From Naegleria gruberi (taxonomy: Eukaryota): a stretch of 64,000 nucleotides of DNA. Made by a program: the position numbers and the translations under genes. This document shows positions 8,567-45,596 of the stretch, in pieces. The first letter of the stretch is position 1, and the number at the start of each line of letters is the position of its first letter. The DNA lies in NCBI GenBank assembly GCA_000004985.1, contig GG738869.1; one strand, 5' to 3'. The notes beneath the pieces are model-generated. The model did no database searches, was not told the origin of the DNA, and saw only the letters and a list, made by a program, of their open reading frames with translations.

Positions 8567-11197
8567 ATGTCTTACTTCAAGCCTTTGGAAATTAAGAGTA
8601 TTTTGACTAAAAAGACTGACCAATTGGATCTTGTCAGACCATTAACAAAATTTATTTCGATACAATATGGAGAACATATTTTGAAAGATTATGAAACTCC
8701 AATCTCTGCCCTTCAACAACGTAGAAATGAAATGAGAAATTTACAAGAGAAGAGTGAAGGATCAAGGGATTTATGTATTAGGTAAGGTTATTGTTCCGAT
8801 GACAATATTTATTAATATTATTATTATTTCGTGATTAGATATGCTGTTGATATGATGCAAGTTGCTAGCCATTTCCCAATTGATACAGGTGTTCAACGTA
8901 TACAAGTACAATTCTCTTGGTATGACAGTCTTAGTCGTGCTAGAACAACACAAGGAAATTCAAATTTTGAAATTGCAAACGTTTTATTTAATAGTGCTGT
9001 TTTATCTCATCAACTTGGTACATCACAAAATAGAAATTCCGAAGAGGGTTGTTTGGAAGCAGCCAAACACTTCCAAAGTGCTGCCGGAATGTTTACCTAT
9101 ATTCAAAAGAAGGTGTGTCCAAATATTGTAGAAAAACTTAATCAAGATTTAACAAACGAAGCTTTGGAAGCATTAGTTTTAATTTGCTTAGCCAATGCTC
9201 AACAATGTATTTGCGAAAAAGCTCACAAGAAGAATATGAAAGGAGCAATTTTATCAAAGTTATATATGGGTGCTAGTCATAGTTACAAGCTTGCTGCTGA
9301 AGTTATTGATGCCTCCAACACTACAAAGAATCTCTTTGACAAGACATGGAAGTCCTATCTCAGATTTTGTCAACACTACTTTGAAGCTTTGGCATCCTAT
9401 CTTATTGCTTTAGATCTTCATGAGGAAATGTGCATTGGCAAGGAAATTACAAGAATTATCCATGCTCAAAATTGTCTTGTTGATTGTTCCGAGCAAAGAG
9501 TGACTGGTAATTTAAAGCTTGTTATGGATGAATTGGATCAAGTACTCAACAATTTGTTAAAGACTGCTCAACATGAAAATTCAAAGATTTATCACGATCG
9601 TGTTCCTGAATTGAAGGATTTGGAACTTGTTGAAGCCAAGACAATGTCAAAGATTCAAGAAGTTAATGAAATTTCCGATTTATTGAAGGAAAAGATTGCT
9701 GATCCATTCTTTAACCTCTTCCCTATTCCAGTTATGGAAGCCAAGCAAAAGTATGAAGAAAATATCAAGAAGAGAATGAATGAAGTTTTTGTTCAAGCTC
9801 GTCAACATCGTGAATATATTAGAAATGAACTTTCAAAGATGGGACTCCCTGGATCAATTTTGATGGTTGACCAAAAGTCAGGATTCCCAGATGAGGTTCA
9901 CCACAAGATCTCCAAGATCAACTTGGAAGGAGGTATCAATAGATTATTTGAATTGAAGCAAACATTGGATGAAATGTCTGGTGAAACCAAGAATCAACTC
10001 GATTCCATCACTAAAAAGCTCGATGAAGAACAAAAGGAAGATGATGAATGTCGTATGCAATACGGAGCTAACAGATGGCCAAGATTGGAAAGCGCCAAGC
10101 TTACTAGCAATTTGAGAAAGCAAATAACTGACTATCAACAAAAGCTGAAGATTGCCATCAACTCTGATAGTTTGATTGATAAGAAGATTTCTGAAAACTC
10201 TGAAGGATTCAAATGGTTCTCTCTCGATAGTAAGACTTTGAATGACAAGATGCCACAAAGTCTCTCTCAAATCATGGAACCAAGCTCACAATTTGGCAAG
10301 TCATATTCTGACCTCAAGTTATATTTGGCACAACTTGACGATATTCTTGAACAAGAACTTGCCATTGAGTCCAACATTTCCAATTCATTCAAATTACAAG
10401 ATAAGGAGATTGAACTCAAACTTTTAGCTTCTCAAAGTAATTTGGAATCTTCTGTACAACAATTATTACAAGAACAAGAAGCCAAGTTTAAGGAACTTTT
10501 GGTTGATTTCCCACAAAAAGAAAATACCTATCTCCAATCCATTCAAGAAGCAAACAGAACTTTTGAACAACACAAGTCTCAAAATTCTATTCAAAGTCAA
10601 AGAGAACAAATTTTACAATTCATTTACAATGCTATCAACAAGTATAATGAAATTAGTGCCAATTTGCAAGAAGGTATCAATTTTTATACAACAATGCAAG
10701 AAATTACCAAGAAACTTGCTAATCGTATTGATGACTTTGTTTTTGCCAGAAGAACAGAAAAACAAGATATTATGGTCAATATTCAACAACAAATTAGTGG
10801 TGTTACAATTGATCCACAATATAATTATTCCTCTTCACAACAACCAAAACCAGTCCATGGTTCAAACACTCCTGTATATTCATCATCCACTATAACTTCT
10901 CAACCAACAACCACCAATACAACCAGCTCATCGCAATACCAACCTCAATATCAATACCAACCAAACGCTTATCAACAACCACCACAACAATATCAACCAC
11001 AAGTTGCCTACCAACAACAACCTCAATACCAACAAGCACAACCATATATGCAAGGAAGTGGTAGCTTTACTCAACCTCAATTCCAATACGTACAACAACA
11101 ACAACAACAACAACCTTACTACAATCCAAACGCTCAATACCAACAACAACAACAACCTTCGTATCAGAATCCTAATCAACCCCAATACAGAAGATAA
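8567..11197 (+). CDS. ALIX/Bro1-domain protein (BRO1 + V domain + Pro/Gln/Tyr-rich tail); 2 exons: 8567..8781, 8839..11197; intron 8782..8838 (57 nt)
   Basis: Exon 1 (MSYFKPLEIK...DLCI) and exon 2 (YAVDMMQVASHF...) align with ALIX, e.g. IYHDRVPELKDLE and the V-domain. The GT..AG intron restores the frame (ag + a = AGA Arg). C-terminal YxxP/QYQP repeats. Confidence 0.85.
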
Positions 11198-13420: not shown

Positions 13421-14702
13421 CTAAAGGTTAAAATCGAATTGTTCCTTATTGCATTCATTGCAAGTTGGAGTTTCAGGAACACCTTTCAAATTCGAAACAA
13501 AATGACTAATCAAAGCTGCATACCACATTACTGCACGATTATTAACCTGTTGAAGACAACTCAATGCAATATAAGGACAATACTTTTTACGTGGAAAGAT
13601 AATATGCTTGGGTTGTACCTTTATATTGTCGGTTTGATCTAGTTTCATTCCAACAATAATCACTTCACATTCAGGTTCCACTCGTTTGATAGCTCTGAAC
13701 CAATTTGGCGTATTTTTATAAGTGATTCTACTCGTAAGATCAAAGCTAATGATACACGCTGAAGCATTTACATAATAGGCATCTCTGAGTGCACCAAATT
13801 TTTCAGGACCAGCTGTTTGGAGTTAAATCTTCTCATTTCAAATCGAATGAAAACTTACCTGTATCCCATAAATTGAGATTTGTTTCCAAATTGCCAATTT
13901 TCAATTGGTACGAATTGACTTCACATCCCATAGTTACTAGATATCGTTTATCAAACTGAAAATCATCATTCATTGATCTGCAAAATGTAGTTTTTCCAAC
14001 TAGAAATTATTAGATTGTGAAATATTTCACAAATTACAACTTACCTCCACCATCTCCAATAATCAAAATCTTTTTCGTTTCAGTATTGTTGTTTAAAGTT
14101 GATGAAGAGTCAACCAATTGATCCTTATGTTGAAATAAGGAAGAAACTATGGAAATTTGCTTGTTAGTTGATTCACTTGCATTCACACTTGGTAATTTCC
14201 TATAGAAATGTGAAAAGTAAAAGTTGAACAGTTCCAATCTCGATTGAAATAATTCCATTAAACGTTGATTCTCAATTGTGGAACCCTCATTCATTGATTT
14301 AGTATCATCAACAACTATATTTTCCTGATTATTGGAATTTCTTGATACTTGATTCTTCTTTAAAATTCCCTCTCTTGTCAATGAATTTTCATACTTTACA
14401 ATAAATTTCAATAATTCATCTCTAATAATATATCGAACTTGTCTAATTGAAAAATTATCAATCAAATGGACTTGTTTAATTTCCTCCCCTTGATCATCAT
14501 CCATTTTCTTCACCTCTCCGAATCTTCTTTTCAAATATTCATTCGCCAATTCATATCGAAAAACCTTACAAACTCTTCCCACTGAAAAAATCATATCAAG
14601 AACATCAAAATATTCGCAGATTTGATAGAGCCAAATCTCTTTCGGAAGATTGATTGCCACTGTGGCAAGAATGTTTGATTCTTCTTCTTCTTGTTGTTCC
14701 AT
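13421..14702 (-). CDS. Ran-like small GTPase with ~210-aa N-terminal extension carrying an F-box-like motif; 3 exons (minus strand): 14702..14045, 13999..13859, 13812..13421; introns 14044..14000 (45 nt) and 13858..13813 (46 nt)
   Basis: Spliced product reads ...KKILIIGDGGVGKTTFCRSMNDDFQFDKRYLVTMGCEVNSYQLKIGNLETNLNLWDTAGPEKFGALRDAYYVNASACIISFDLTSRITYKNTPNWFRAIKRVEPECEVIIVGMKLD..., colinear with Ran (GDGGTGKTTF...WDTAGQEKF...NKVD). Donors are GTAAGT and acceptors TAG/CAG. N-terminus has LPKEIWLYQICEYFDVLDMIFSVGRVCKVFR (F-box-like). First ATG is the 8th codon of the track ORF. Confidence 0.75.
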
Positions 14703-15015
14703 TTTATTTTGTTTTGAGATCAAAGAGTTTTTGAAGAAAATGGAATTTTAATGGAAAGATTAGAAATTCCCGCCAAGAGAATTCAAACGATGAAGGATCG
14801 TGGGTTCGAGACCCATTGGTGGTATCAAATTTTTAGTAACTAATAATTAATTATATCAAAATTAATGAAACAATTTGCAATACTTATTCCAATATTGGAA
14901 TCAATGTATTGAATATATTTCAATATCTTTTTACAAAGACCTATGAGGTCAGTTGAATATTATCTTTCGAATGTCTCTCTCAATGATTATGATAACTAAA
15001 ATTCATCCAAAAAAA

Positions 15016-15918
15016 ATGTCAAAAGTCATCTTCTTGATTTTACTCTTGTGTTTCATCGGTGTCATTAACGCTTCTGGTTCTATTTTCAACCCAACCGATG
15101 CAGAAATTGATCAAATTATCGAAATGTCAGACTCTGAATTTTCTTCTGGCACCAAATTCGCATCCCTCACAACTTTAAATGTTCGTGAAGGTCCTTGCAC
15201 TGATAAGAAAATTGTTACCACACTCGGATCTGATGTTGTTGTTACCTATACTGGTAAATCCATCACTGCCTGTGGTCATACTTGGTTCTCAGTTTCTGGA
15301 ACTTTTGGACAAGGTTATGCCTCATCAACCTATTTGAGACAAGTTGTTAATCCTGGAGCTGGATCTGCTTTTAGAAATTCTGCTGCTCAATGGGCTGCTT
15401 CAAAGGCTGGAAGTTGTTATTCACAAGCCAATAGATATGGAAATCCATGTTATGATTGTTCTAGTTTGGTAGGTTGTTGTGGAGGTTGAATGGTGATTGG
15501 TGGAATAATCTAATTTTTTTATTGATTGATTGATATATTTGAATGTTTCTTGCGCCTATATTAGGTTCATCTTGCTTATAAACAATCTGGTAAGCCTAAT
15601 GTTCCACTCACTACCAGATTGTATCCTAATAGTGCTGTTAAGGAAATTAGTAAGAATGAAATTGCTGCTGGTGATATTTTGTGGAGAGAAGTAAGTAGTA
15701 AGAGTGAAAACAATTGTTCTGAACTCTAGCTCAATTATTATTAATATTAATATTTATATATTTATATTGAATGAAAATTGAAATTTTTGATTAATTAGGG
15801 ACATGTTGGCATGTATCTTGGCAATGGACAAGTGGTTAATGCTGAAAATGAAAAGAATGGTGTTAAAATCAGAACTTTTGCCAATTTCAGATATACCAAG
15901 ATTTATAGAGTTCTTTAA
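15016..15918 (+). CDS. secreted bacterial-type SH3b + NlpC/P60 (CHAP-like) cysteine peptidase / peptidoglycan hydrolase; 3 exons: 15016(alt. ATG 14971)..15468, 15565..15690, 15799..15918
   Basis: Signal peptide MSKVIFLILLLCFIGVINASG; SH3b-like block LNVREGPCTDKKIVTTLGSDVVVTY...WFSVS. NlpC/P60 catalytic Cys motif NPCYDCSSLV ends exon 1, exon 2 continues HLAYKQSGKPNVPLTTRLY...AAGDILWRE, and exon 3 has the His motif GHVGMYLGNGQVVNA. Introns are 96 and 108 nt (GTAGGT..TAG and GTAAGT..TAG). Confidence 0.8.
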
Positions 15919-16030
15919 ATAAAAACTCAATTTATCTACCAAAAGAGAGAACTAAATTCTTATTCTCGGCCTGTTTGAAAAGCTGATGATAATGAGGCTG
16001 TTATACAGCAAAATTTTACTTATATGTGAA

Positions 16031-16111
16031 GCAGGGGTTCCCGAGTGGTCAAAGGGGGTAGACTCAAGTTCTACTGCGCAAGCTTCGTGGGTTCAAATCC
16101 CACCTTCTGCA
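16031..16111 (+). tRNA. tRNA-Leu (anticodon CAA), type II with long variable arm
   Basis: Cloverleaf: acceptor GCAGGGG/CTTCTGC, D-arm, anticodon stem GTAGA/TCTAC with loop CTCAAGT (CAA), variable arm, T-arm GTGGGTTCAAATCCCAC. T-rich tract downstream acts as Pol III terminator. Confidence 0.85.
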
Positions 16112-17324
16112 AATTTTGTATTTTTCTCCTTCAACTTTTTGCCCTCATCTCCTTTTAATATATCACTATCTTCAATATCATGTATAGTATCTACTCTGAA
16201 AATATTGTCTAATGATATAAAGTAGTCACCAAGAAATTCAACAATGATTACAAGCACCTCAAAATCCGTTCAATTAATGCAAATGAAACTTTACAACGAT
16301 TGTAAAACATTCACAATTAGGAATGATAAAATCCAAAACTAATTCAACTGTTCGTTCAATAATTATTTCACCCTTTTGGAATTCGACAAACTGTTTGAGT
16401 TCATTGTATTTCCAATACTTTATACAATCGACAACTTTCTATCGGAATCTCACAACACATGAATGTATACAACATTAGTGAATTATCCAATTCCAAGCCC
16501 ATTCACAAAATGAGAAAGAAAATTCAAATTAGCATTTAGAAGATTCACTTTTTTTAATTAATTGCTCTGAAAAGTCTTTTGGAAACTATTCGAAATTCCA
16601 AAATGTCGTATCAAGTTCAATAATTTGTCATCAAACAAGGATCCAAAATTAACACTTCAGGAATAAAACGAGTCTCTTCCGGAATATCAATGATATTCAT
16701 CCCAGATTTCTATTCGAAAGGCTCTTTAATAACTCGTTACAAAATAGTATCTGAAAAATATTCATGTGTTAACAGAACACCATAAAAAGAGATGATCCAT
16801 GAAATACAAAACATAATGAAAGCACTCTAATGTTGAATTATTGTTGAATTGTACACCTTTCGAATAGTATCAAACCTTTCGTCTACCATCTTGTTCACTT
16901 TTAAAAACACAGTAGACGAAACATGGATTACAACAATATAAGGATTCTGTTCAAAACATGGGTTTAGCATACTTTAATGGATTAAAAAACTCAACACCTT
17001 CCATCATTCCAACACTTTCCATTCAAATTAGTCAAGAATCCACTTTATTTATTCTAATCTTCCAATTTCAAGTAACATGTAACCATTCATTCCTTAAAAT
17101 TCAACACTTTCCAACTTCCTAATCCAGATTCATCTTTCCAAACCGAGTCACCGAGCGAATTGGTAATATGAACGGTTCTTGGGATTTGATTGTCAATTTA
17201 AATTAAAGAATACAAAAACAATCAGAGGTTTCTAAATGAAAATATGCAAAACGTTTGTTGCTAGCAAGAAGTATTTAATCGGATATCAGATTGTTGTTTT
17301 CACTTTCAAAAAAAAAATAACAAA

Positions 17325-35673: not shown

Positions 35674-38600
35674 ATGTCGCGCCCGATTTCTTTCTCAAAT
35701 CGACACAATGTTCGAGGGGTGGCGATGTTGTATGTTGGTGGCTTATTGATGATGTTGATGATGATGATAGTTTTGGGATTTGGTGTTCAGGAGGGATCGT
35801 GTACGGTGTATGAAGTGAGAAATTCGACTTCCTTGTGGGACATTGTTCATGGAAATAAGTTGGTACCTGGTGATGAAGGTAAGTATCATGATTTATTCAT
35901 CATTCAATTTGGATGATATGGTGATTAGTGGTATTGAGAGAGGGCAATTATACATGCTATTATCAAAGTACTTGGTATAGAAATATTGTATTGAAAGGTC
36001 TTACTAATGCTCCTATTACTATTAGAGCTGCCAGTGGAGAGAAGGTTTTGGTCGAAGGAGATTTGAATGCTAGTCAAAATTTGTTGAATTTTAATGTAGA
36101 AAACTTTATTCTGAAAGGTATTGAATTTAGATATGGTGATAGAGGACTGAGATTTTTTGGTGCTAGCAATGTTCTATTGGAAGATTTACACATTCATGAT
36201 ACCAGTGATGTTGGTATGGCAATGAACGATCGTGATGTTACCTATTCTAATGTTACAATTAGGGAAGCTTTTGTGTTTTTACTTTATTAGAAACTGGATG
36301 AAAACAGACACGTTCAAATCCACCACACTCATGGTACTGGAGAGTGCTTCTACTTGGGCTGTAATGATGATGCTTGTCGTTTGATTAATTCACTTATTGA
36401 ATATAATTATTGCCATCATACATGTTGCGTTCAAGGTGATGGTATCGAAGTGAAGAGAGGTTCCTACAATAATGTTATTCGCCACAATGTCATTCACGAT
36501 ACTCACTATCCTGGAATTATTGTGTACGGTGCCAACAATGGTATTCCAAATATTATTGATTCCAACATTATTTGGAACGCTGGTGATAATGGTATTCAAA
36601 TTGCTGCTAATACCATTGCTCGTAACAATATTGTACTCAACTCAAAGATGAATGGTATTAGTATTCAACCTAATCAAGGCAATCCAACAGCTGTTATTTT
36701 GGAACATAACACTGTCATTGGAGCTCTCAGTGGGTCGTGTCTCTCTACTTATAGTACATACATTGGTTCAGAGTTTGTGATTGCAAACAATGCATTCTAT
36801 TGTGAGAATGCTAGTGCAATTTCTGAAACCAATGCAAACTCCAAAACTGTCTATCTTTCTAATGTTGTGAAAGGAAAAGTTACAAGCCAATATGCCAGCA
36901 ATATTATTTATGGAACTGGGTTGAGGGATTTTACCAGTACTGCTTCTCTTCCTTTCAACACTTATCCTTCCCTTGGTTCGTCCTTACTTGGAGTTTCAAC
37001 CTACATGGCTAATACATCAACTCCTTTGGATTTTGATGGTCGTGACAGAAGTGCAGCCTCACGTATTGATGCAGGTGCTTATCAACGGGTTGCTCAAAAC
37101 TCACCAACATGGATTCCAGTAGCTGGTTTCAAAGATGGTTGGAGCAGTCCTGCTCAATCAACTTCTCCAAAGCGTGTAAAGCCTGTTCCTTCAGATAATG
37201 CACATTACAATAGAACAACTTTTATCATCACTCCACAAAATGGTTCTTCATTATTTGACTTGATGAGCACTTTACAACCTGGAGACACCTTATTGGTACG
37301 AGCAGGCACTTATCCTGTTAAATTTGCCAATGCTTGGTTTACCAAGATTGTCCTCTCTGGATCTCCATCAAATCCAATTACTGTTTCTGCATGGCCTGGT
37401 GAAAGAGTTGTTTTGTATGGTGATCCATACGGATCTCAAAACATAATCAACTTGGAAGTTATGTACTTTGTCTTCAGAGGTTTTGAAATGGTTTATGGTT
37501 CCAGAGGAATTAGACTTCATGAATCCTCTCATTCAATCTTTGAAGACTTGAACGTGCACCACACTTGGGCAAATGCAATCTCTGCAAATGATAAGGGTGT
37601 TCATTATCAAAATATTACATTCAGAAATAATCGGGTTGCTCATACTCATGGTACTGGAGAATGTTTTTATTTGGGTTGCCAAGATGCTGCTTGTATCTTT
37701 TCAGATTCTCTCATTGAAGGAAATCTATGTGAATACACGTGTTGTGAACAAGGTGATGGTATTGAACTAAAGCATGGTTCTTACAATAACATAGTTAGAA
37801 ATAACGTTGTTCACGACACACCATATCCAGGTATTACCACTTATACTACTGGGGGCAATGCTCCAAATATTATTGAGGGAAATTTCATTTTTAATACTGG
37901 TGATAATGGTATTCAATGTACATCAGGTCAAATTATTCGAAACAATATCATTGTCAATGCAAGCATCAATGGTATTGATATTCACGATGATGGAGCTGTT
38001 TCTGATCTTACCATCACTCATAACACTGTAATTAACGCCAAAATTGCTTGTTTTTCTGCTGGTGGTTTACAAACAGCTTCAAACGTAATTATTGCAAACA
38101 ATGCTTTGTTTTGTAAGTTTCATACTTTAAATGATTAACTAATCATTATAGGTGACAACTCTCAATACGGATATTATGAGAGATATTTATCTGATAAGAA
38201 GACTAGCACTTTTTATTCGGCAAGAAACTATTATTCAGGAAAAACAAATGGTGTTGGCATTGATTTGGTAAAGGTCAATAACAGTTCTCATGACATACTG
38301 TTGGGTATTGATTTACTGAATGCCTATCCAACATCGATCAGTAACCTTATTGGAGCGGGTAGCCTAAAGTATTCAACACCTTTGGATTTTAATGGAAATT
38401 CCAGATCATCAACTCCAGATGTTGGCGCTTATCAATATTCAACCCCTTCAAATCCAGGTTGGGTTGCTAAAGGATGGTTCAAGAATGGATATAACTCAGT
38501 ATCCGTGTCAGGAAATTGGGAATATCCAAAGAATGTCCTTATTCCTCAAGACGACGATTCTTATATTGGAATGGTTTATCACATCACAGAAGCCAATTAT

Positions 38601-40077
38601 TCATCTTCAAACTGCAAGTATGAAAATATATGGAAAACCATGGCATTGTTGAAACCTGGAGATACTATGATTTTCCATTCAGGAACATTACTAACCCAAG
38701 TCTGTGGGCATGGTTCTTTCTACAGAAGATTAACGGTTATTGGTAGCCCAAATCGTCCAGTGGTAATTAAGGTTGCGGATGGAGAAAGTGTAACAATTCA
38801 AGGCGACATCGGTCAGTCACAAAATATCATGGATGTTGCTTTTTACAATGTCCTTTTTAAAGGATTCAATATGAAATATGGATCCAGAGGTCAGTATCAT
38901 TTTTGAGAAATATTAACTTTTGACAGGTCTTAGAGTCTATGAAGCCCAAAACACAACATTTGAAGGATTGGAAATTTCTGAAACAGCAGATGTTGCTTTC
39001 GCAGGAAACGATCTAAGAGGAGATTACAACAATGTAACTATCAGAAGAGTTAAAGTTCACCACACGCATGGTACAGGGGAATGTTTCTATTTGGGTTGTA
39101 ATTTTGGTGAGTGCATTTGGAGAAATTCCATCATTGAGTACAACCATTGTTCGTAAGTTTCATTGTTTTTTTGAGATACTAAGAAAAAATCATTTAGACA
39201 CACTTGTTGTGAACAAGGTGATGGTATAGAATTAAAGGCTGGTTCGTATGGAAATATTATTCGCCACAATGTAATTCATGATACTATCTATCCTGGAATC
39301 ACATTGTACACTCCAATGGAGGGCAAGCCACCAAATGTTGTCTATGGTAATATTGTGTGGAATACTCAAGATAATGGAATACAAGTAACAGGAAATACAA
39401 TTCTCATGAATAATATTGTAATGAATGCCAAATATTATGGAATTTCAATTCAAGAAAATCAACAGAGGGTGAACGGACTTGGTAACATTGAAAATGTTGC
39501 AATTCTCCACAATACAGTTGTTGGGGTAAGCTCTAAAACCAGTGGAGCTTGTTTTGCCACTAGTGGAACAAATTCTGGAAAAGGAAACATTGTAATTGCT
39601 GGAAATGCCTTTTACTGTTCAGATGCCAAGGCAACACGTGAAGTTAATGTTCATCCAAACACTAAGTATGGTATTAATGTTGTTAGCGGAACCAGTACAA
39701 TGTCAGGTACCTTAATTGGCGACTTGGTGTCAGACTTTTTGGATGTTTCTTCAATTCCTTACAATTTGTATCCAAGAAAGGGAGGGAAATTATATGGCTC
39801 ATCAAATCTCACAATTTACGATCTAGTTTCAAAAGATTTCAATGGTCTTGTTAGATCTTCACAAAGAATGGATGTTGGTGCCCTTCAATATATTGAAGGA
39901 AAAGATAACAACCCAGGTTGGATTCCAAAGGATGAATTCAAACCATTTACTGATCTTTCGCCTCTTGCAAGTCAGTCCACCAATACCACAATGTCCGATG
40001 CCCAAATAATTCTCAATAATGTAACTCTCAACTATTTTTTGGTCATTCTAATGGTATTTGTTTCAATTTGCTTATAA
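35674..40077 (+). CDS. ~1400-aa secreted, probably GPI-anchored protein built from three tandem right-handed parallel beta-helix (PbH1 / pectate-lyase-fold) modules; 6 exons: 35674..35878, 35929..36274, 36308..38112, 38152..38889, 38927..39152, 39198..40077
   Basis: N-terminal signal/TM (LLMMLMMMIVLGFG). Each module has an N-terminal block L..G.T....PITI.A..GE.V...GD, then HTHGTGECFYLGC, CC.QGDGIE.K.GSYNN..R.NV.HDT.YPGI, then NxGDNGIQ PbH1 repeats and PLDF.G..RS...D.GAYQ. C-terminus is Ser/Thr-rich followed by hydrophobic tail NYFLVILMVFVSICL, a GPI-signal-like arrangement. Introns of 50, 33 (putative), 39, 37 and 45 nt all keep the frame (g+tg=Val, t+gt=Cys, g+gt=Gly, tc+a=Ser). Confidence 0.7.
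35929..39990 (+). repeat. three tandem intragenic ~430-codon modules (approx. 35929-37190, 37190-38520, 38520-39990) of the beta-helix gene
   Basis: The blocks HTHGTGECFYLGC / EYN.C..TCC.QGDGIE.K.GSYNN / NxGDNGIQ recur three times at ~1.3-kb spacing in the same reading direction, about 50-60% identical by eye. Confidence 0.6.
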
Positions 40078-40131: not shown

Positions 40132-41535
40132 ATGTCATCACAACTTCTCTACTCGATGTATTGCATTTTGGAGGGCAACTTTCCAATGGATAAACAACAT
40201 ATTCAGGACTTCAACCAAAGAAAATCACCCGATTGGATGAATCTTTCTAAACCGTTAATTAGCAAGACCAATATTTGGCATCAGGCCTCAAGTTTTCATC
40301 AATTACAAATTAAATCAACACTCTGTGGATCAACGTGCACCGAATTAATTTCAGTGCTGGATTTTGAGGATACTTCATGTTGTTCTCTCTTTTTAATATT
40401 CGGAGGAAGATCTTCCGAAATCAGGGAAGGTACTTGCATGGTAAATGATGAAAAACAATTGTATTTGATAGAGATGGTTGATAATGAATTTTCCACATGT
40501 TTGAGCTATGTCTATGATGAAAATGTGTTGAATGAAAAACAAATTCCACAGGCACGATACGGCCATTCTAGTGTCTTTGATAAAGATAGAAAGTTAATGT
40601 ATGTCTTTGGTGGGATGGCTGGAGGGAAGTGTCATAATGATTTGGCAATTTTTGATGTAGTGACAAGTTTGTGGACAATTGTTAATTTTGCAAATGTTGG
40701 ATGCTTGATTCTTCCACAAGAAAGATATGGACATAATTGTGCCATTTACAAAAATTGGATGTTTGTTTGTGGAGGAAGGGATAGCTCAGGAAATATTTTA
40801 GGAGGAATTCAAGCTATGGATTTGGATCGTTGTTTATGGATGAATATTCAAGTGGAATCATTGAGTGGAAGAAGTTTCTTTACTATGGACGTGATTGAGA
40901 GAAGAGATGATAAAATTGAGATGATCATTGCTGGAGGAATTAGAAAAGATCTCAACGAAAAACCACTACAAAGACTTACCATCACTGTTGGGAATGAAAG
41001 ATCTATACACTGCTCAGTTAATCCAATAGAAAATCAAGAACTGACTTGGGATAAGTACGGACATTGCTCTGTATTCAAAAATCAAACCTTGCTATTGGTA
41101 GGAGGTCAGAATCAAGATCACTCTCTAGATTGTAATAGCTTGGAATTTAGTATTGAGAGTGAAACCTTCTCCTCATTCTCATACTTTCTACAGCCATCTA
41201 CACATTGCAGTTTGTCGTTCCTGAACATTTCGCAAGATCTTGATGTCAATCAGAATGATGGATTCTATTTTGCTTCATTACTTTATGACAGCACTTTGAA
41301 TTGCTATGTTGTTGGGGGAAATTCGATAGCTACTTATAGAACTACACCATCAATAGATGTTTCAGAAAACGTTATCAGTGATACGTGGGTAAAGATTGTC
41401 AGCTTTTTGAATTACGATGACTTGAAGAAATTATGTCTAGTTTCCAAACGATTCTACACAATATTTACTGCAGATGTGATTTGGAAGCCAATTCTGTTTA
41501 AATTCTTTGCAGAAAAATTGATAATACCCGTATAA
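40132..41535 (+). CDS. kelch-repeat (beta-propeller) protein with C-terminal F-box-like motif (467 aa)
   Basis: Kelch-type units with GG doublets and ARYGHS / ERYGHNC / DKYGHCS motifs; C-terminal DTWVKIVSFLNYDDLKKLCLVSKRFYTIFTADVIW; ATG 40132. Confidence 0.7.
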   Translation: MSSQLLYSMYCILEGNFPMDKQHIQDFNQRKSPDWMNLSKPLISKTNIWHQASSFHQLQIKSTLCGSTCTELISVLDFEDTSCCSLFLIFGGRSSEIREGTCMVNDEKQLYLIEMVDNEFSTCLSYVYDENVLNEKQIPQARYGHSSVFDKDRKLMYVFGGMAGGKCHNDLAIFDVVTSLWTIVNFANVGCLILPQERYGHNCAIYKNWMFVCGGRDSSGNILGGIQAMDLDRCLWMNIQVESLSGRSFFTMDVIERRDDKIEMIIAGGIRKDLNEKPLQRLTITVGNERSIHCSVNPIENQELTWDKYGHCSVFKNQTLLLVGGQNQDHSLDCNSLEFSIESETFSSFSYFLQPSTHCSLSFLNISQDLDVNQNDGFYFASLLYDSTLNCYVVGGNSIATYRTTPSIDVSENVISDTWVKIVSFLNYDDLKKLCLVSKRFYTIFTADVIWKPILFKFFAEKLIIPV

Positions 41536-41606
41536 TATGTGATTATAAGAAACAATTTCAGAAACTCATTCAAGACAAAATTTCTTCAATTAATGATAAT
41601 AACAAG

Positions 41607-42230
41607 TTGTCCAATAAGGTGTGGCCTTTCAAAAGGAGATCATATTACGAGAGGGAAATCAACTTTACTCCACCAAATATCACATGCCCAATAAGGACTT
41701 TCAAAATTTCAGTTGTAGGAGAACCATTTATGGTGAAAGCATTTATTTCCAAAATTACAGGTAAAGATGTGAACAAGATAACTGAGGAGGAACCAATTCA
41801 CATGGTGCAATTTTATTTCCATCACAATATCTATCACTTCTTGATGGATACTAGAACTAATGACATTCCAGAAGATCAACAGCAATCGTTCAGCCTCAAA
41901 TTAGTTTGCATTCGATTAGGAAGAGCTAATCAATCTATCGCAAATTCTCATGATGTTACCTGTCCTACTATAGTTCTAGGTCTCGAAGAAGAGCTTTACA
42001 AGTTTTCAATATTTAAAAAGAGTTACAATAGTCAATACTTTCAACATGTGCTACCATTCGCAACTAGTAAGGATTTGACTTTAATATTCAAACAAATTAC
42101 TTCAATTGGAGCATTTGAGAAGATTTCAACAGAGACTGGTTTTGGAATGTATCAGTTATTGGAATTCTTTCTTGATTGTATCAAAAATGATCCAACACAA
42201 TCTTCAACCTCTGGTTGTGAACTTAATTGA
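41607..42230 (+). CDS. hypothetical protein with degenerate small-GTPase-like core (possible pseudo-GTPase); true start unresolved (track ORF begins at TTG, first ATG ~41727)
   Basis: KISVVGEPFMVKAFISKITGKDVNK...HMVQFYF...FLMDTRTND parallels the P-loop/switch I/DTAG layout of the Ran-like gene at 13421..14702, but lacks GK[ST] and the catalytic Gln. Confidence 0.3.
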   Translation: MSNKVWPFKRRSYYEREINFTPPNITCPIRTFKISVVGEPFMVKAFISKITGKDVNKITEEEPIHMVQFYFHHNIYHFLMDTRTNDIPEDQQQSFSLKLVCIRLGRANQSIANSHDVTCPTIVLGLEEELYKFSIFKKSYNSQYFQHVLPFATSKDLTLIFKQITSIGAFEKISTETGFGMYQLLEFFLDCIKNDPTQSSTSGCELN

Positions 42231-44400: not shown

Positions 44401-45161
44401 TTATGTAGTTTTAGGTTTTGGAAATTTTAAATGAAAATTTATGTTCCAGCCTTTGTGGTCAATAAATACTAATCGTATTTAATTATGAATTAAGAGTTGC
44501 TCCAGAGGATCATGAAATGTTATATCATGATTAAATCCAATGGAAATGTTTGAATTCTTCATTCATAGAAGATGAAAAATGTGTTTAGGTGGTATTGTTG
44601 TTCTATTAATTAATAAAAATTGAAATTTAAGGTACCAATCTGCATGTTCACAAATCCCCCATTCACAAACCATGGCTGGAAAGGAATGCAGCAATCATCT
44701 ATGAACGAGGAAACCTACAGCGAAGCATGTTTCCAGTTCGATATCATGCTCAAGATATGTGACTACAGAGTCTTCATCTTGGTTAACCTCAAAGGTCAGA
44801 TTGACTCAAAAAAGTCGAGTTTATGTATTCCTACAGAAAAGATCCTGTAGAAGTACAGTCAATGGTTTTATCAATCTTGCATCCTCAATGATGTTATATC
44901 GGTTGTGAAAGTGAGAAATGTTGTGAGGAAAAGTTATGGTTAAAAAATTGAGAAAAATTAGAAGACATATTCAAGAAAATATTTGAATGAGTTGGAGAAA
45001 CACAAGGTCGTTTTTTAGTTGAGAATTTACAAATTTTGGTTGTTTAATTTGTAAATTGGAGAATTACTCTGTTGGAAGAAAATGATAAATAACTAAAAAC
45101 GACCTTGTGTGATTATTGATCTATTCCCATATGAAAATCAAGTTTGTTTCCCAAACATGAA

Positions 45162-45242
45162 GCAGGGGTTCCCGAGTGGTCAAAGGGGGTAGACTCAAGT
45201 TCTACTGCGCAAGCTTCGTGGGTTCAAATCCCACCTTCTGCA
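45162..45242 (+). tRNA. tRNA-Leu (anticodon CAA), second copy, 81/81 nt identical to 16031..16111
   Basis: Identical sequence GCAGGGGTTCCCGAGTGGTCAAAGGGGGTAGACTCAAGTTCTACTGCGCAAGCTTCGTGGGTTCAAATCCCACCTTCTGCA. Both copies are preceded by TGAA and followed by a related TTTCTCC(T/C)TCAA..TTTTT flank. Confidence 0.85.
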
Positions 45243-45596
45243 GCTTTTGCTTCTTTCTCCCTCAATATTTTTGGTAATACCACCAGTTTCCTATTTTTAT
45301 TGTGCGTATGACGTCTAGTTTCTATGGTAAAAGTTTGATTCAATTCCGTCAAGGCTCTATGAAGATAATCAATAAAGATAACACTGACCTCAAATATTCC
45401 AGTAAAAATACCTTTAAAAATTTCAAACAAACCAAAGATTGAGAAACAGCCGCTCATAGTTATTCTCTGAATGAAATGCCTTCTAGGAGCTACAGATCCA
45501 TATTGTTACAGCGGAATAAGGTTTTTGTGAATGACAACATGGAGAACATTTTGGAAATGAAAAGTTTAAAATATTAATTTGCTTTTCAAGTTCTAT

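What the first reader, a model, noticed from the sequence alone, without database searches (positions are those of the whole stretch)
13421..14723. Ran-like GTPase with F-box-like N-terminal extension and predicted GTPase-dead catalytic site
The spliced G-domain is clearly Ran-like across all five G-box regions, but three things set it apart from housekeeping Ran. The switch II catalytic glutamine is Pro (WDTAGPEKF instead of WDTAGQEKF). The guanine-specificity motif NKVD is MKLD. The protein is preceded by a ~210-aa extension containing an F-box-like motif (LPKEIWLYQICEYFDVLDMIFSVGRVCKVFR). This predicts a permanently GTP-bound or nucleotide-free Ran paralogue recruited to an SCF-type or other scaffolding role. 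A second, more degenerate GTPase-like ORF lies at 41607..42230. A 3' tRNA-like fragment (GTGGGTTCGAGACCCATTGGTGGTA, 14788-14835) sits in its promoter region.
Basis: partly seen in the sequence, partly recalled or inferred. Interest (0 to 1): 0.6.

Follow-up and report, generated by a model that had tools for sequence, protein, structure and literature searches.

The report
Published Naegleria F-box–Ran-like GTPase gene
This is a real, spliced gene of the amoeba Naegleria gruberi that joins an F-box (a handle for a ubiquitin ligase) to a Ran-derived GTPase domain lacking its catalytic glutamine, but the gene model and its F-box–Ran layout were already published in 2021.

Summary
The core observation holds. 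A three-exon gene on the minus strand (ATG 14702, stop 13421, GT..AG introns of 45 and 46 nt) encodes 396 aa: a divergent F-box (aa 18-60), a helical linker carrying a conserved FYFSHF motif, and a Ran-derived G domain. That domain has an intact P-loop and switch I Thr, WDTAGPEKF (Pro in place of the catalytic Gln), MKLD in place of NKxD, and no acidic Ran tail.

It is not new. The translation is 100% identical to the corrected model of N. gruberi XP_002677020.1 in Table S8 of Herman et al. 2021 (PMC8296547), listed there as "Ran" with an extra "F-box" domain. That paper already proposes GTPase-dependent ubiquitination. N. gruberi also has canonical Ran genes and two further paralogues of this type.

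What I add:
- The Pro is conserved in three Naegleria species.
- No family member keeps the canonical DTAGQ motif.
- Both halves evolve under purifying selection.
- The same N-terminal module is joined to Rab-like G domains in two environmental eukaryotes.

"GTPase-dead" and SCF recruitment remain untested predictions. The "second GTPase-like ORF" (41607-42230) has no support. The tRNA-like fragment is only a T-arm-like 22-mer.

The parts
13421..14702 (-). Whole gene, ATG to stop: N. gruberi F-box-Ran-like GTPase, 396 aa (corrected model of XP_002677020.1)
   Evidence: Splicing and translation; 396/396 identity to the Table S8 sequence; table entry
14045..14702 (-). Exon 1: aa 1-219 plus the first base of codon 220 (N-terminal extension and first half of the P-loop)
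   Evidence: a continuous ORF from the ATG into GDGG
14523..14651 (-). Divergent F-box, aa 18-60 (LPKEIWLYQICEYFDVLDMIFSVGRVCKVFRYELANEYL)
   Evidence: Pfam F-box-like 13.9 bits, E 0.047. Relatives pass the PF00646 cutoff. hhalign against an F-box profile gives 93.9%, E 1.6e-7. The top two PDB profile hits are the cyclin F and FBXW7 F-boxes, at non-significant E 0.14 and 0.19. Annotated as F-box in PMC8296547 Table S8.
14205..14222 (-). FYFSHF motif (aa 161-166) in the predicted helical linker; F161, Y162, S164, H165 and F166 are invariant and position 163 is nearly so (F, or M in P0124) across all seven aligned family sequences
   Evidence: Alignments A3 and A4
14000..14044 (-). Intron 1, 45 nt, GTAAGT..TAG, phase 1, inside the P-loop (Val220 codon)
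   Evidence: The N. lovaniensis and L004 orthologues lack this intron and read GDGGVGKT / GDGGIGKT without a break.
13859..13999 (-). Exon 2: end of the P-loop, switch I (KRYLVTMGCEV) up to WDT
13813..13858 (-). Intron 2, 46 nt, GTAAGT..CAG, phase 1, in the Ala codon of DTAG; position and phase conserved in N. lovaniensis (77 nt) and L004 (70 nt)
13421..13812 (-). Exon 3: switch II to the stop codon; no acidic Ran C-terminal tail
13805..13807 (-). CCT codon for Pro269, at the position of the catalytic Gln69 of Ran
   Evidence: Pro is also found in N. lovaniensis, L004 and P0122.
13637..13648 (-). G4 motif MKLD (aa 322-325) in place of NKxD
   Evidence: Relatives have TKLD, TKSD, MQSD or NKND.
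14803..14824 (+). T-arm/B-box-like 22-mer GGTTCGAGACCCATTGGTGGTA in the intergenic region upstream of the gene; not a tRNA gene, and probably not part of the gene
   Evidence: Unique in the window, 0 expected by chance. No ARAGORN tRNA. No Rfam tRNA at E<=10. Unrelated to the window's tRNA-Leu genes beyond the T loop.

Best explanation
The locus is the Naegleria gruberi gene whose corrected model (XP_002677020.1*) is already published as an 'F-box + Ran' protein. It is one of three N. gruberi paralogues of a small family specific to Naegleria and related amoebae. The layout is that of an F-box substrate receptor: an N-terminal F-box, then a helical linker with a conserved FYFSHF motif, then a Ran-derived G domain in the position where WD40, LRR or Kelch domains sit in classical F-box proteins. 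Shown: the gene structure, the Ran ancestry of the G domain, F-box homology of the N-terminal motif, conservation of Pro at the catalytic-Gln position, and purifying selection on both halves. Inferred: the F-box docks on Skp1 (in an SCF ligase or a non-SCF Skp1 complex). The G domain still binds guanine nucleotide, because the P-loop, switch I Thr, DxxG, and the Lys and Asp of G4 are intact. It probably cannot be switched off by a RanGAP-type mechanism, which depends on the GTPase's own Gln. It would therefore act as a largely GTP-locked binding module that brings partners to the ligase, or lets GTP binding gate their ubiquitination. I put the identity and architecture at about 0.95 and this mechanism at about 0.4.
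For: Identity: the spliced translation equals the Table S8 sequence, 396/396. Ran ancestry: Ran/Gsp1 at 5e-38 against Rab at about 1e-19. Ran-specific stretches are kept: GDGGxGKTTF, WDTAG.EKFG.LRD.YY, FDLTSRITYKN.PNW.R and FPRKK. F-box: relatives pass the Pfam cutoff, hhalign gives 93.9%, and the top PDB profile hits are the cyclin F and FBXW7 F-boxes in the right register, though not significant. Family and selection: exhaustive HMM searches with the N-terminal module find only this small family. dN/dS between N. lovaniensis and L004 is 0.19 overall (N-terminal part 0.23, G domain 0.14). The intron position is conserved. Non-canonical G3 motif in every member: DTAGP in three Naegleria species, DTVGQ, DWAGG, DQCGP and DTNSQ in the others. 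Published interpretation: 'GTPase-dependent ubiquitination'. Precedents: RhoBTB, also present in Naegleria, and TbFRP, a FYVE-F-box-GTPase.
Against: There is no biochemical or expression evidence for this gene. The F-box scores below the Pfam threshold in this very protein (13.9 against 24.3 bits). The Naegleria copies carry an extra Trp in helix 1, and N. lovaniensis has LS instead of LP, so Skp1 binding is not assured. AlphaFold gave no usable model (pLDDT 38.6). The close paralogue XP_002672613.1 retains Gln (DTVGQ), so loss of hydrolysis is not uniform in the family. Met at the first G4 position may lower nucleotide affinity (inference). No partner is known, and the Ran basic patch is only partly conserved in the family (PRKK, PINK, LSRK).
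Confidence: 0.55

Rival explanations
1. The F-box serves mainly to make the GTPase itself short-lived through SCF-dependent self-turnover. The G domain would be a signalling GTPase with its own slow or unconventional cycle, not a substrate-recognition module.
For: This is the reading proposed for the experimentally studied FYVE-F-box-GTPase TbFRP, which is rapidly cleaved and turned over. F-box proteins are commonly autoubiquitinated (my knowledge).
Against: The order F-box, linker, C-terminal domain, and the rigidly conserved linker motif, are typical of substrate receptors. Nothing here tests turnover.
Confidence: 0.2
2. The N-terminal motif is a relic F-box that no longer binds Skp1. The 205-aa extension would be a lineage-specific helical domain that regulates or localises the Ran-like domain, for example by intramolecular autoinhibition.
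For: Sub-threshold Pfam score in the window protein and in both Naegleria relatives that were scanned full-length. A Trp insertion in helix 1, and LP changed to LS in N. lovaniensis. No PDB hit with the whole N-terminal profile.
Against: The motif is the best-conserved part of the extension across the family (invariant L, D, F, G, C, K, R). It is under purifying selection and matches F-box profiles in register.
Confidence: 0.15
3. The F-box binds Skp1 in a non-SCF complex, as yeast Rcy1 does, and the protein acts as a scaffold in trafficking or nuclear transport without any ubiquitination.
For: Non-SCF F-box/Skp1 complexes working with small GTPases exist (my knowledge). The same N-terminal module is joined to Rab-like G domains in two environmental eukaryotes.
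Against: No direct evidence. It cannot be told apart from the SCF model by sequence.
Confidence: 0.08
4. The locus is a decaying, non-functional Ran duplicate.
For: Substitutions at catalytic and G4/G5 positions. The published survey notes birth-and-death evolution and pseudogenes among Naegleria GTPases.
Against: The spliced ORF is intact with canonical splice sites. Orthologues with the same architecture and intron position exist in other Naegleria species. dN/dS is 0.19. The Pro is conserved rather than random.
Confidence: 0.02

Closest known systems
N. gruberi XP_002677020.1 (corrected model), 'Ran' with 'F-box', Table S8 of Herman et al. 2021, BMC Biol 19:142 (PMC8296547)
   Same: Identical protein, 396/396 aa. 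The same exon structure is implied, with the same F-box + Ran annotation and the same proposed link to ubiquitination.
   Different: Nothing differs in the sequence. I found no mention of 'catalytic', 'glutamine' or 'GTP hydrolysis' in the supplementary GTPase text or table, so the Gln-to-Pro and NKxD changes appear not to be discussed there.
In-genome paralogues XP_002672613.1 (P0001) and XP_002681167.1*
   Same: Same F-box-linker-Ran-like layout. Identity is 66-70% depending on the alignment and 23% full-length, E 1e-29. Both have a non-canonical G3 motif.
   Different: XP_002672613.1 keeps Gln but has DTVGQ, GNGG and TKLD. XP_002681167.1* has DWAGG and MQSD and is not flagged as F-box in the table.
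Canonical Ran/Gsp1
   Same: Closest G-domain relative (5e-38), about 39% identity over the G domain. Same P-loop, switch I Tyr and Thr, and switch II context.
   Different: Gln69 is Pro, NKVD is MKLD, SAK is LSC. There is no C-terminal helix or DEDDDL tail. A 205-aa N-terminal F-box extension is added.
RhoBTB (atypical Rho GTPase fused to BTB domains, a Cul3 adaptor)
   Same: An atypical small-GTPase domain fused to a cullin-ligase adaptor domain. It is also present in Naegleria. It is the best functional analogy (my knowledge of RhoBTB biology).
   Different: A different GTPase family (Rho, not Ran), a different adaptor (BTB/Cul3, not F-box/Skp1-Cul1) and the opposite domain order.
TbFRP (FYVE-F-box-Rab-like GTPase of Euglenozoa; PMC3593210)
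   Same: An F-box upstream of a small GTPase domain in another discoban lineage (lineage placement is my knowledge); the function of its F-box is likewise unresolved.
   Different: TbFRP has a FYVE domain and a Rab18-like G domain. No FYVE domain is found here, and the authors found no N. gruberi orthologue.

Membership tests
Ran family (Ras superfamily) | G domain most similar to Ran rather than to other Ras-superfamily branches | tested here: met
   Ran/Gsp1 at 5e-38, 134 bits, against the best Rab at about 1e-19, 74 bits. The same holds for the N. lovaniensis orthologue.
Ran family (Ras superfamily) | Canonical G1-G5 motifs, including catalytic Gln69 and NKxD | tested here: not met
   G1 GDGGVGKT and the G2 Thr are intact. 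G3 is DTAGP (Gln to Pro), G4 is MKLD and G5 is LSC.
Ran family (Ras superfamily) | C-terminal extension ending in the acidic DEDDDL tail | tested here: not met
   Alignment A6: the protein ends about 35 residues after the last G-domain helix and has no acidic tail.
Ran family (Ras superfamily) | Function in nucleocytoplasmic transport; regulated by RCC1 and RanGAP | not testable with these tools
   Needs biochemistry. Canonical Ran genes exist elsewhere in the genome.
F-box proteins (PF00646 / PF12937) | Sequence match to the F-box profile at the curated threshold | tested here: inconclusive
   The window protein scores 13.9 bits against a cutoff of 24.3. Homologous relatives P0122 (29.2 bits) and P0124 (24.0 bits) pass PF00646. 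hhalign of the family motif against an F-box profile gives 93.9%, E 1.6e-7. Annotated as F-box by Herman et al..
F-box proteins (PF00646 / PF12937) | Binds Skp1 | not testable with these tools
   No usable structural model. Needs a pull-down, two-hybrid assay or complex prediction.
PseudoGTPases / constitutively GTP-bound atypical GTPases | Lack of nucleotide hydrolysis (or binding) shown experimentally | not testable with these tools
   Only the sequence prediction is available: Pro at the catalytic position, conserved in three Naegleria species.
TbFRP family | N-terminal FYVE domain plus F-box plus Rab-like GTPase | tested here: not met
   No FYVE hit at E<=1, and the G domain is Ran-like.
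Naegleria 'F-box + Ran' group of Herman et al. 2021 | Listed member; F-box-like N-terminus plus a Ran-like G domain | tested here: met
   Exact sequence identity to the table entry.

The most novel reading that the evidence does not exclude
The family could be a set of GTP-locked 'Ran mimics' used as substrate receptors. The Ran-like switch surface would capture Ran-binding proteins (karyopherins, RanBP1-type proteins) and deliver them to an SCF ligase. The F-box + FYFSHF-linker cassette would be a mobile module that different amoebae have fused to either Ran-type or Rab-type G domains, making small-GTPase effector surfaces a general class of degron readers.
Probability: 0.12. Interest if true: 0.6.

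Novelty: already known. Interest (0 to 1): 0.3.

Why it matters
If F-box-GTPase fusions do act as ubiquitin-ligase receptors, Naegleria would show a way of coupling small-GTPase-type recognition to protein degradation that animals, fungi and plants use only marginally (RhoBTB). That idea and this very gene model are already in the literature (Herman et al. 2021, supplementary text and Table S8). The finding is therefore a correct rediscovery. The modest additions here are that replacement of the catalytic Gln is conserved and family-wide, that both halves are under purifying selection, and that the N-terminal cassette also occurs with Rab-like domains. These sharpen the hypothesis and identify the mutants to test, for example P269Q.

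Tried and rejected
- AlphaFold2 on the 7-sequence family alignment gave pLDDT 38.6. On the second ORF as a single sequence it gave 32.9. Both models are unusable, so no fold searches were run.
- A profile of the whole N-terminal extension found nothing in PDB sequences.
- An apparent tblastx chain suggesting synteny with the N. lovaniensis locus was rejected. The window's neighbours are ALIX/BRO1, a secreted SH3_3 protein, an HMG-box protein and an SNF2 protein. The N. lovaniensis neighbours are Ras, RRM, MBOAT and a guanylate cyclase.
- N. gruberi gene calls are not in the contig index, so the original GenBank models around the locus could not be inspected.
- The second ORF was tested as a GTPase with Pfam, PDB, BLASTP against a Naegleria F-box-Rac (43), a homologue search (65) and a Ran HMM with filters off (69). 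All were negative.
- The tRNA idea was tested with ARAGORN (5), Rfam at E<=10 (37) and alignment to the window's tRNA-Leu genes (76). No tRNA was found.
- An alternative splice that would restore Gln was considered and rejected, because the CCT codon lies inside exon 3 and two orthologues also encode Pro.
- Literature searches for 'Ran-like' with 'F-box domain' found no dedicated study.

Full report
**1. What is in the sequence**

The region 13421-14723 carries a minus-strand gene.
- The first ATG is at 14702. The 14723 boundary is only the TTG chosen by the bacterial-style ORF lister.
- Exon 1 (14045-14702) is one open frame. It runs from the ATG through about 205 residues of non-GTPase sequence into the first half of a P-loop (…KKILIIGDGG).
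- A 45-nt intron (14000-14044, GTAAGT…TAG) and a 46-nt intron (13813-13858, GTAAGT…CAG) join it to exon 2 (13859-13999) and exon 3 (13421-13812, stop TAG).
- The product is 396 aa. If intron 1 is retained, the frame stops after GDGGGKL.
- The window has about 34% G+C and short GT..AG introns, so it is eukaryotic.

**2. The gene model is right**

- The N. lovaniensis orthologue (P0002, locus L001) has a single 77-nt intron at exactly the position and phase of window intron 2, after the first base of the Ala codon of DTAG. It reads GDGGVGKT without interruption where the window has intron 1.
- A third Naegleria contig (L004, from SRR29240419) has a 70-nt intron at the same place.
- The Pro codon (CCT, 13805-13807) lies five bases inside exon 3. 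Both orthologues also encode WDTAGPE(K/R)F. The Pro is therefore not a splicing artefact.

**3. What the domains are**

- The G domain (aa about 205-375) hits Pfam Ras at 3.7e-31.
- Among solved structures it matches Ran/Gsp1 far better than anything else: 5e-38, 134 bits, against about 1e-19, 74 bits, for Sec4 and Rabs.
- Aligned to canonical Rans, it keeps GDGGxGKTTF, the switch I Tyr and Thr (KRYLVTMGCEV), WDTAG-EKFG-LRD-YY, FDLTSRITYKN-PNW-R and F-RKK.
- It has Pro for the catalytic Gln, MKLD for NKVD and LSC for SAK. It lacks the C-terminal helix and the acidic DEDDDL tail.

The N-terminal motif (aa 18-60) is a divergent F-box.
- On its own it scores only 13.9 bits (E 0.047) against Pfam F-box-like, where the cutoff is 24.3. 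The paralogue P0001 scores 17.5 bits.
- Two more distant members of the same family pass the curated PF00646 threshold: P0122 at 29.2 bits and P0124 at 24.0 bits.
- A 6-sequence profile of the motif ranks the F-boxes of cyclin F and FBXW7 first among all PDB sequences, in the right register but not significantly (E 0.14 and 0.19).
- hhalign of that profile against a profile I assembled matches at 93.9% probability, E 1.6e-7. My profile combined F-box segments listed as such in Naegleria GTPases, the window's own Kelch-F-box protein and FBXW7.
- I therefore accept the F-box as homologous. Whether it still binds Skp1 is untested.

**4. It is already published**

A full-text search led to Herman et al. 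2021 (BMC Biol 19:142, PMC8296547).
- Additional file 10 (Table S8) prints, under N. gruberi "Ran", a corrected model for XP_002677020.1* with extra domain "F-box". My conceptual translation is identical to it over all 396 residues. The window is therefore N. gruberi NEG-M.
- The top database hit P0001 (66% identity by BLASTP; 69-70% in the alignments) is XP_002672613.1, the next row of the same table, also "F-box". It is a paralogue, not an orthologue.
[quoted passage not shown] It says the F-box is the most frequent extra domain, found with Rab, Rho, Ran and Gα domains. It says this points to "GTPase-dependent ubiquitination".
- Canonical Ran genes are listed separately: XP_002679238.1 and XP_002682548.1.
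- A further row, XP_002681167.1*, is not flagged as F-box. It aligns end to end with the window protein (E 1e-29) and carries the same N-terminal motif, with DWAGG and MQSD. N. gruberi thus has three members of this family.
- The words "catalytic", "glutamine" and "GTP hydrolysis" do not occur in the GTPase text or table. The active-site substitutions seem not to have been discussed.

**5. What I can add**

(a) The family is small.
- An exhaustive HMM search of 1.84 billion representative proteins with the N-terminal profile gave five hits: P0001, P0121 (the same gene as L004), P0122, P0124 and one weak hit.
- A second, word-indexed search gave three.

(b) The Pro is conserved.
- DTAGP occurs in the window gene, N. 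lovaniensis and L004. DQCGP occurs in P0122.
- No member has the canonical DTAGQ. The others are DTVGQ, DWAGG and DTNSQ.
- Departure from a normal hydrolytic switch II is therefore a family trait.

(c) G4 is TKLD, TKSD, MKLD or MQSD in the Naegleria members, and NKND in L003.
- The Lys is kept in all but one member and the specificity Asp in all.
- TKxD is the normal motif of Rac-type GTPases (my knowledge).
- "Loss of guanine specificity" is therefore not warranted. Met at this position may weaken nucleotide affinity (inference).

(d) Both halves are constrained. dN/dS between N. lovaniensis and L004 is 0.19: 0.23 for the N-terminal part and 0.14 for the G domain. dS of about 1.3 is near saturation, so these values are rough.

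(e) The N-terminal cassette (F-box plus linker with FYFSHF) is not tied to Ran.
- In P0122, an intronless gene on a compact eukaryotic metagenome contig (L002), the G domain is Rab8/Rab1-like with no Ran among the top 60 hits.
- In L003 the cassette is followed, across an intron in the P-loop, by a Rab-like domain with WDTNSQERF and GNKND.

**6. How it most likely works**

The order F-box, helical linker, C-terminal domain is that of SCF substrate receptors (my knowledge of Skp2, Fbw7 and β-TrCP). Here the C-terminal domain is a Ran-derived G domain with a complete nucleotide-binding core but no catalytic Gln.
- RanGAP supplies no arginine finger and relies on Ran's own Gln69 and Tyr39, and Ran Q69L is GTPase-deficient (my knowledge).
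- I therefore infer a mostly GTP-bound domain that RanGAP cannot switch off, presenting a Ran-like switch surface.
- Tethered through Skp1, it would recruit partners for ubiquitination, or make recruitment depend on GTP loading. This matches the authors' suggestion and resembles RhoBTB/Cul3.
- Every step after "F-box-like motif + Ran-like domain lacking Gln" is inference.
- The rivals cannot be excluded by sequence: self-turnover as proposed for TbFRP, a relic F-box with a regulatory helical domain, or a non-SCF Skp1 complex. A pseudogene is unlikely (section 5d).

**7. Side remarks of the finding**

ORF 41607-42230 exists, but nothing supports a GTPase.
- Tests run: no Pfam family at E<=1, no PDB sequence at E<=10, no similarity to a Naegleria F-box-Rac, no homologue at all, -1 bit against a Ran HMM with filters off, and an unusable AlphaFold model.
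- What is notable is its context. The upstream ORF 40132-41535 is a Kelch β-propeller with a C-terminal F-box (PF00646, 22.3 bits).
- A 32-nt GT..AG interval (41530-41561) would join it in frame to this ORF. That splice is my inference and is unverified.

The "tRNA-like fragment" is a unique 22-mer with T-arm/B-box character at 14803-14824 on the plus strand. It lies 101-122 nt upstream of the ATG. It is not a tRNA gene.

**8. Verdict**

This is a correct and careful observation of a real, unusual gene, but the gene model and its F-box-Ran architecture are already in the literature.
- Novelty: already known.
- The residual interest (0.3) lies in the conserved, family-wide loss of the canonical catalytic motif and the modular reuse of the N-terminal cassette. 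Both make the "GTPase-dependent ubiquitination" idea more directly testable.

Noticed in passing
window 40132-42230 (+): ORF 40132-41535 encodes a Kelch beta-propeller with a C-terminal F-box (PF00646, 22.3 bits). A 32-nt GT..AG interval (41530-41561) would join it in frame to ORF 41607-42230, giving a protein of about 688 aa. Its last 222 residues have no detectable relative in Pfam, PDB or the 5.8-billion-protein index.
   Followed up: partly
L002 2130-3212; L003 101-1300: Two environmental eukaryotic contigs carry the same F-box + FYFSHF-linker cassette fused to Rab-like, not Ran-like, G domains. Their G3 motifs are also non-canonical (DQCGP, DTNSQ). This suggests exchange of the G domain on a conserved N-terminal module.
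   Followed up: partly
window 16027-16140 and 45158-45271 (+): Two tRNA-Leu(CAA) genes lie 29,131 bp apart within a 114-nt direct repeat (93% identity). No larger duplicated segment was detected around them.
   Followed up: no
window 14803-14824 (+): An isolated T-arm/B-box-like sequence (GGTTCGAGACC + TGGTGGTA) sits in the roughly 250-nt divergent intergenic region between the Ran-like gene and ORF 14953-15489. It could be a tRNA relic or a solo TFIIIC-type site; neither possibility was tested.
   Followed up: partly
window 14953-15489 (+): A small ORF with a signal-peptide-like start (MSKVIFLILLLCFIGVINASG) and a bacterial-type SH3 domain (PF08239, 27.9 bits), transcribed divergently from the Ran-like gene.
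   Followed up: no
window 35928-40077 (+): A run of ORFs with three internal repeats about 1.3-1.5 kb apart (111-nt cores at 36417, 37734 and 39199, 68-77% identical). The sequence looks like parallel beta-helix repeats and ends in a hydrophobic tail. It is probably one large repeat-containing surface protein interrupted by introns.
   Followed up: no
window 8831-11197 (+): An ALIX/BRO1-domain protein whose C-terminal part is a Gln/Pro/Tyr-rich degenerate repeat (direct repeats at 10927-11153).
   Followed up: no
Table S8 of PMC8296547, row XP_002681167.1*: This N. gruberi Ran-like protein is not flagged as F-box in the table. It has the same N-terminal motif (INNDVWLFSILEFLNPLDLFFGISKCCKLSRR) and aligns full-length with the window protein (E 1e-29). 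It probably belongs to the same F-box-Ran group.
   Followed up: partly
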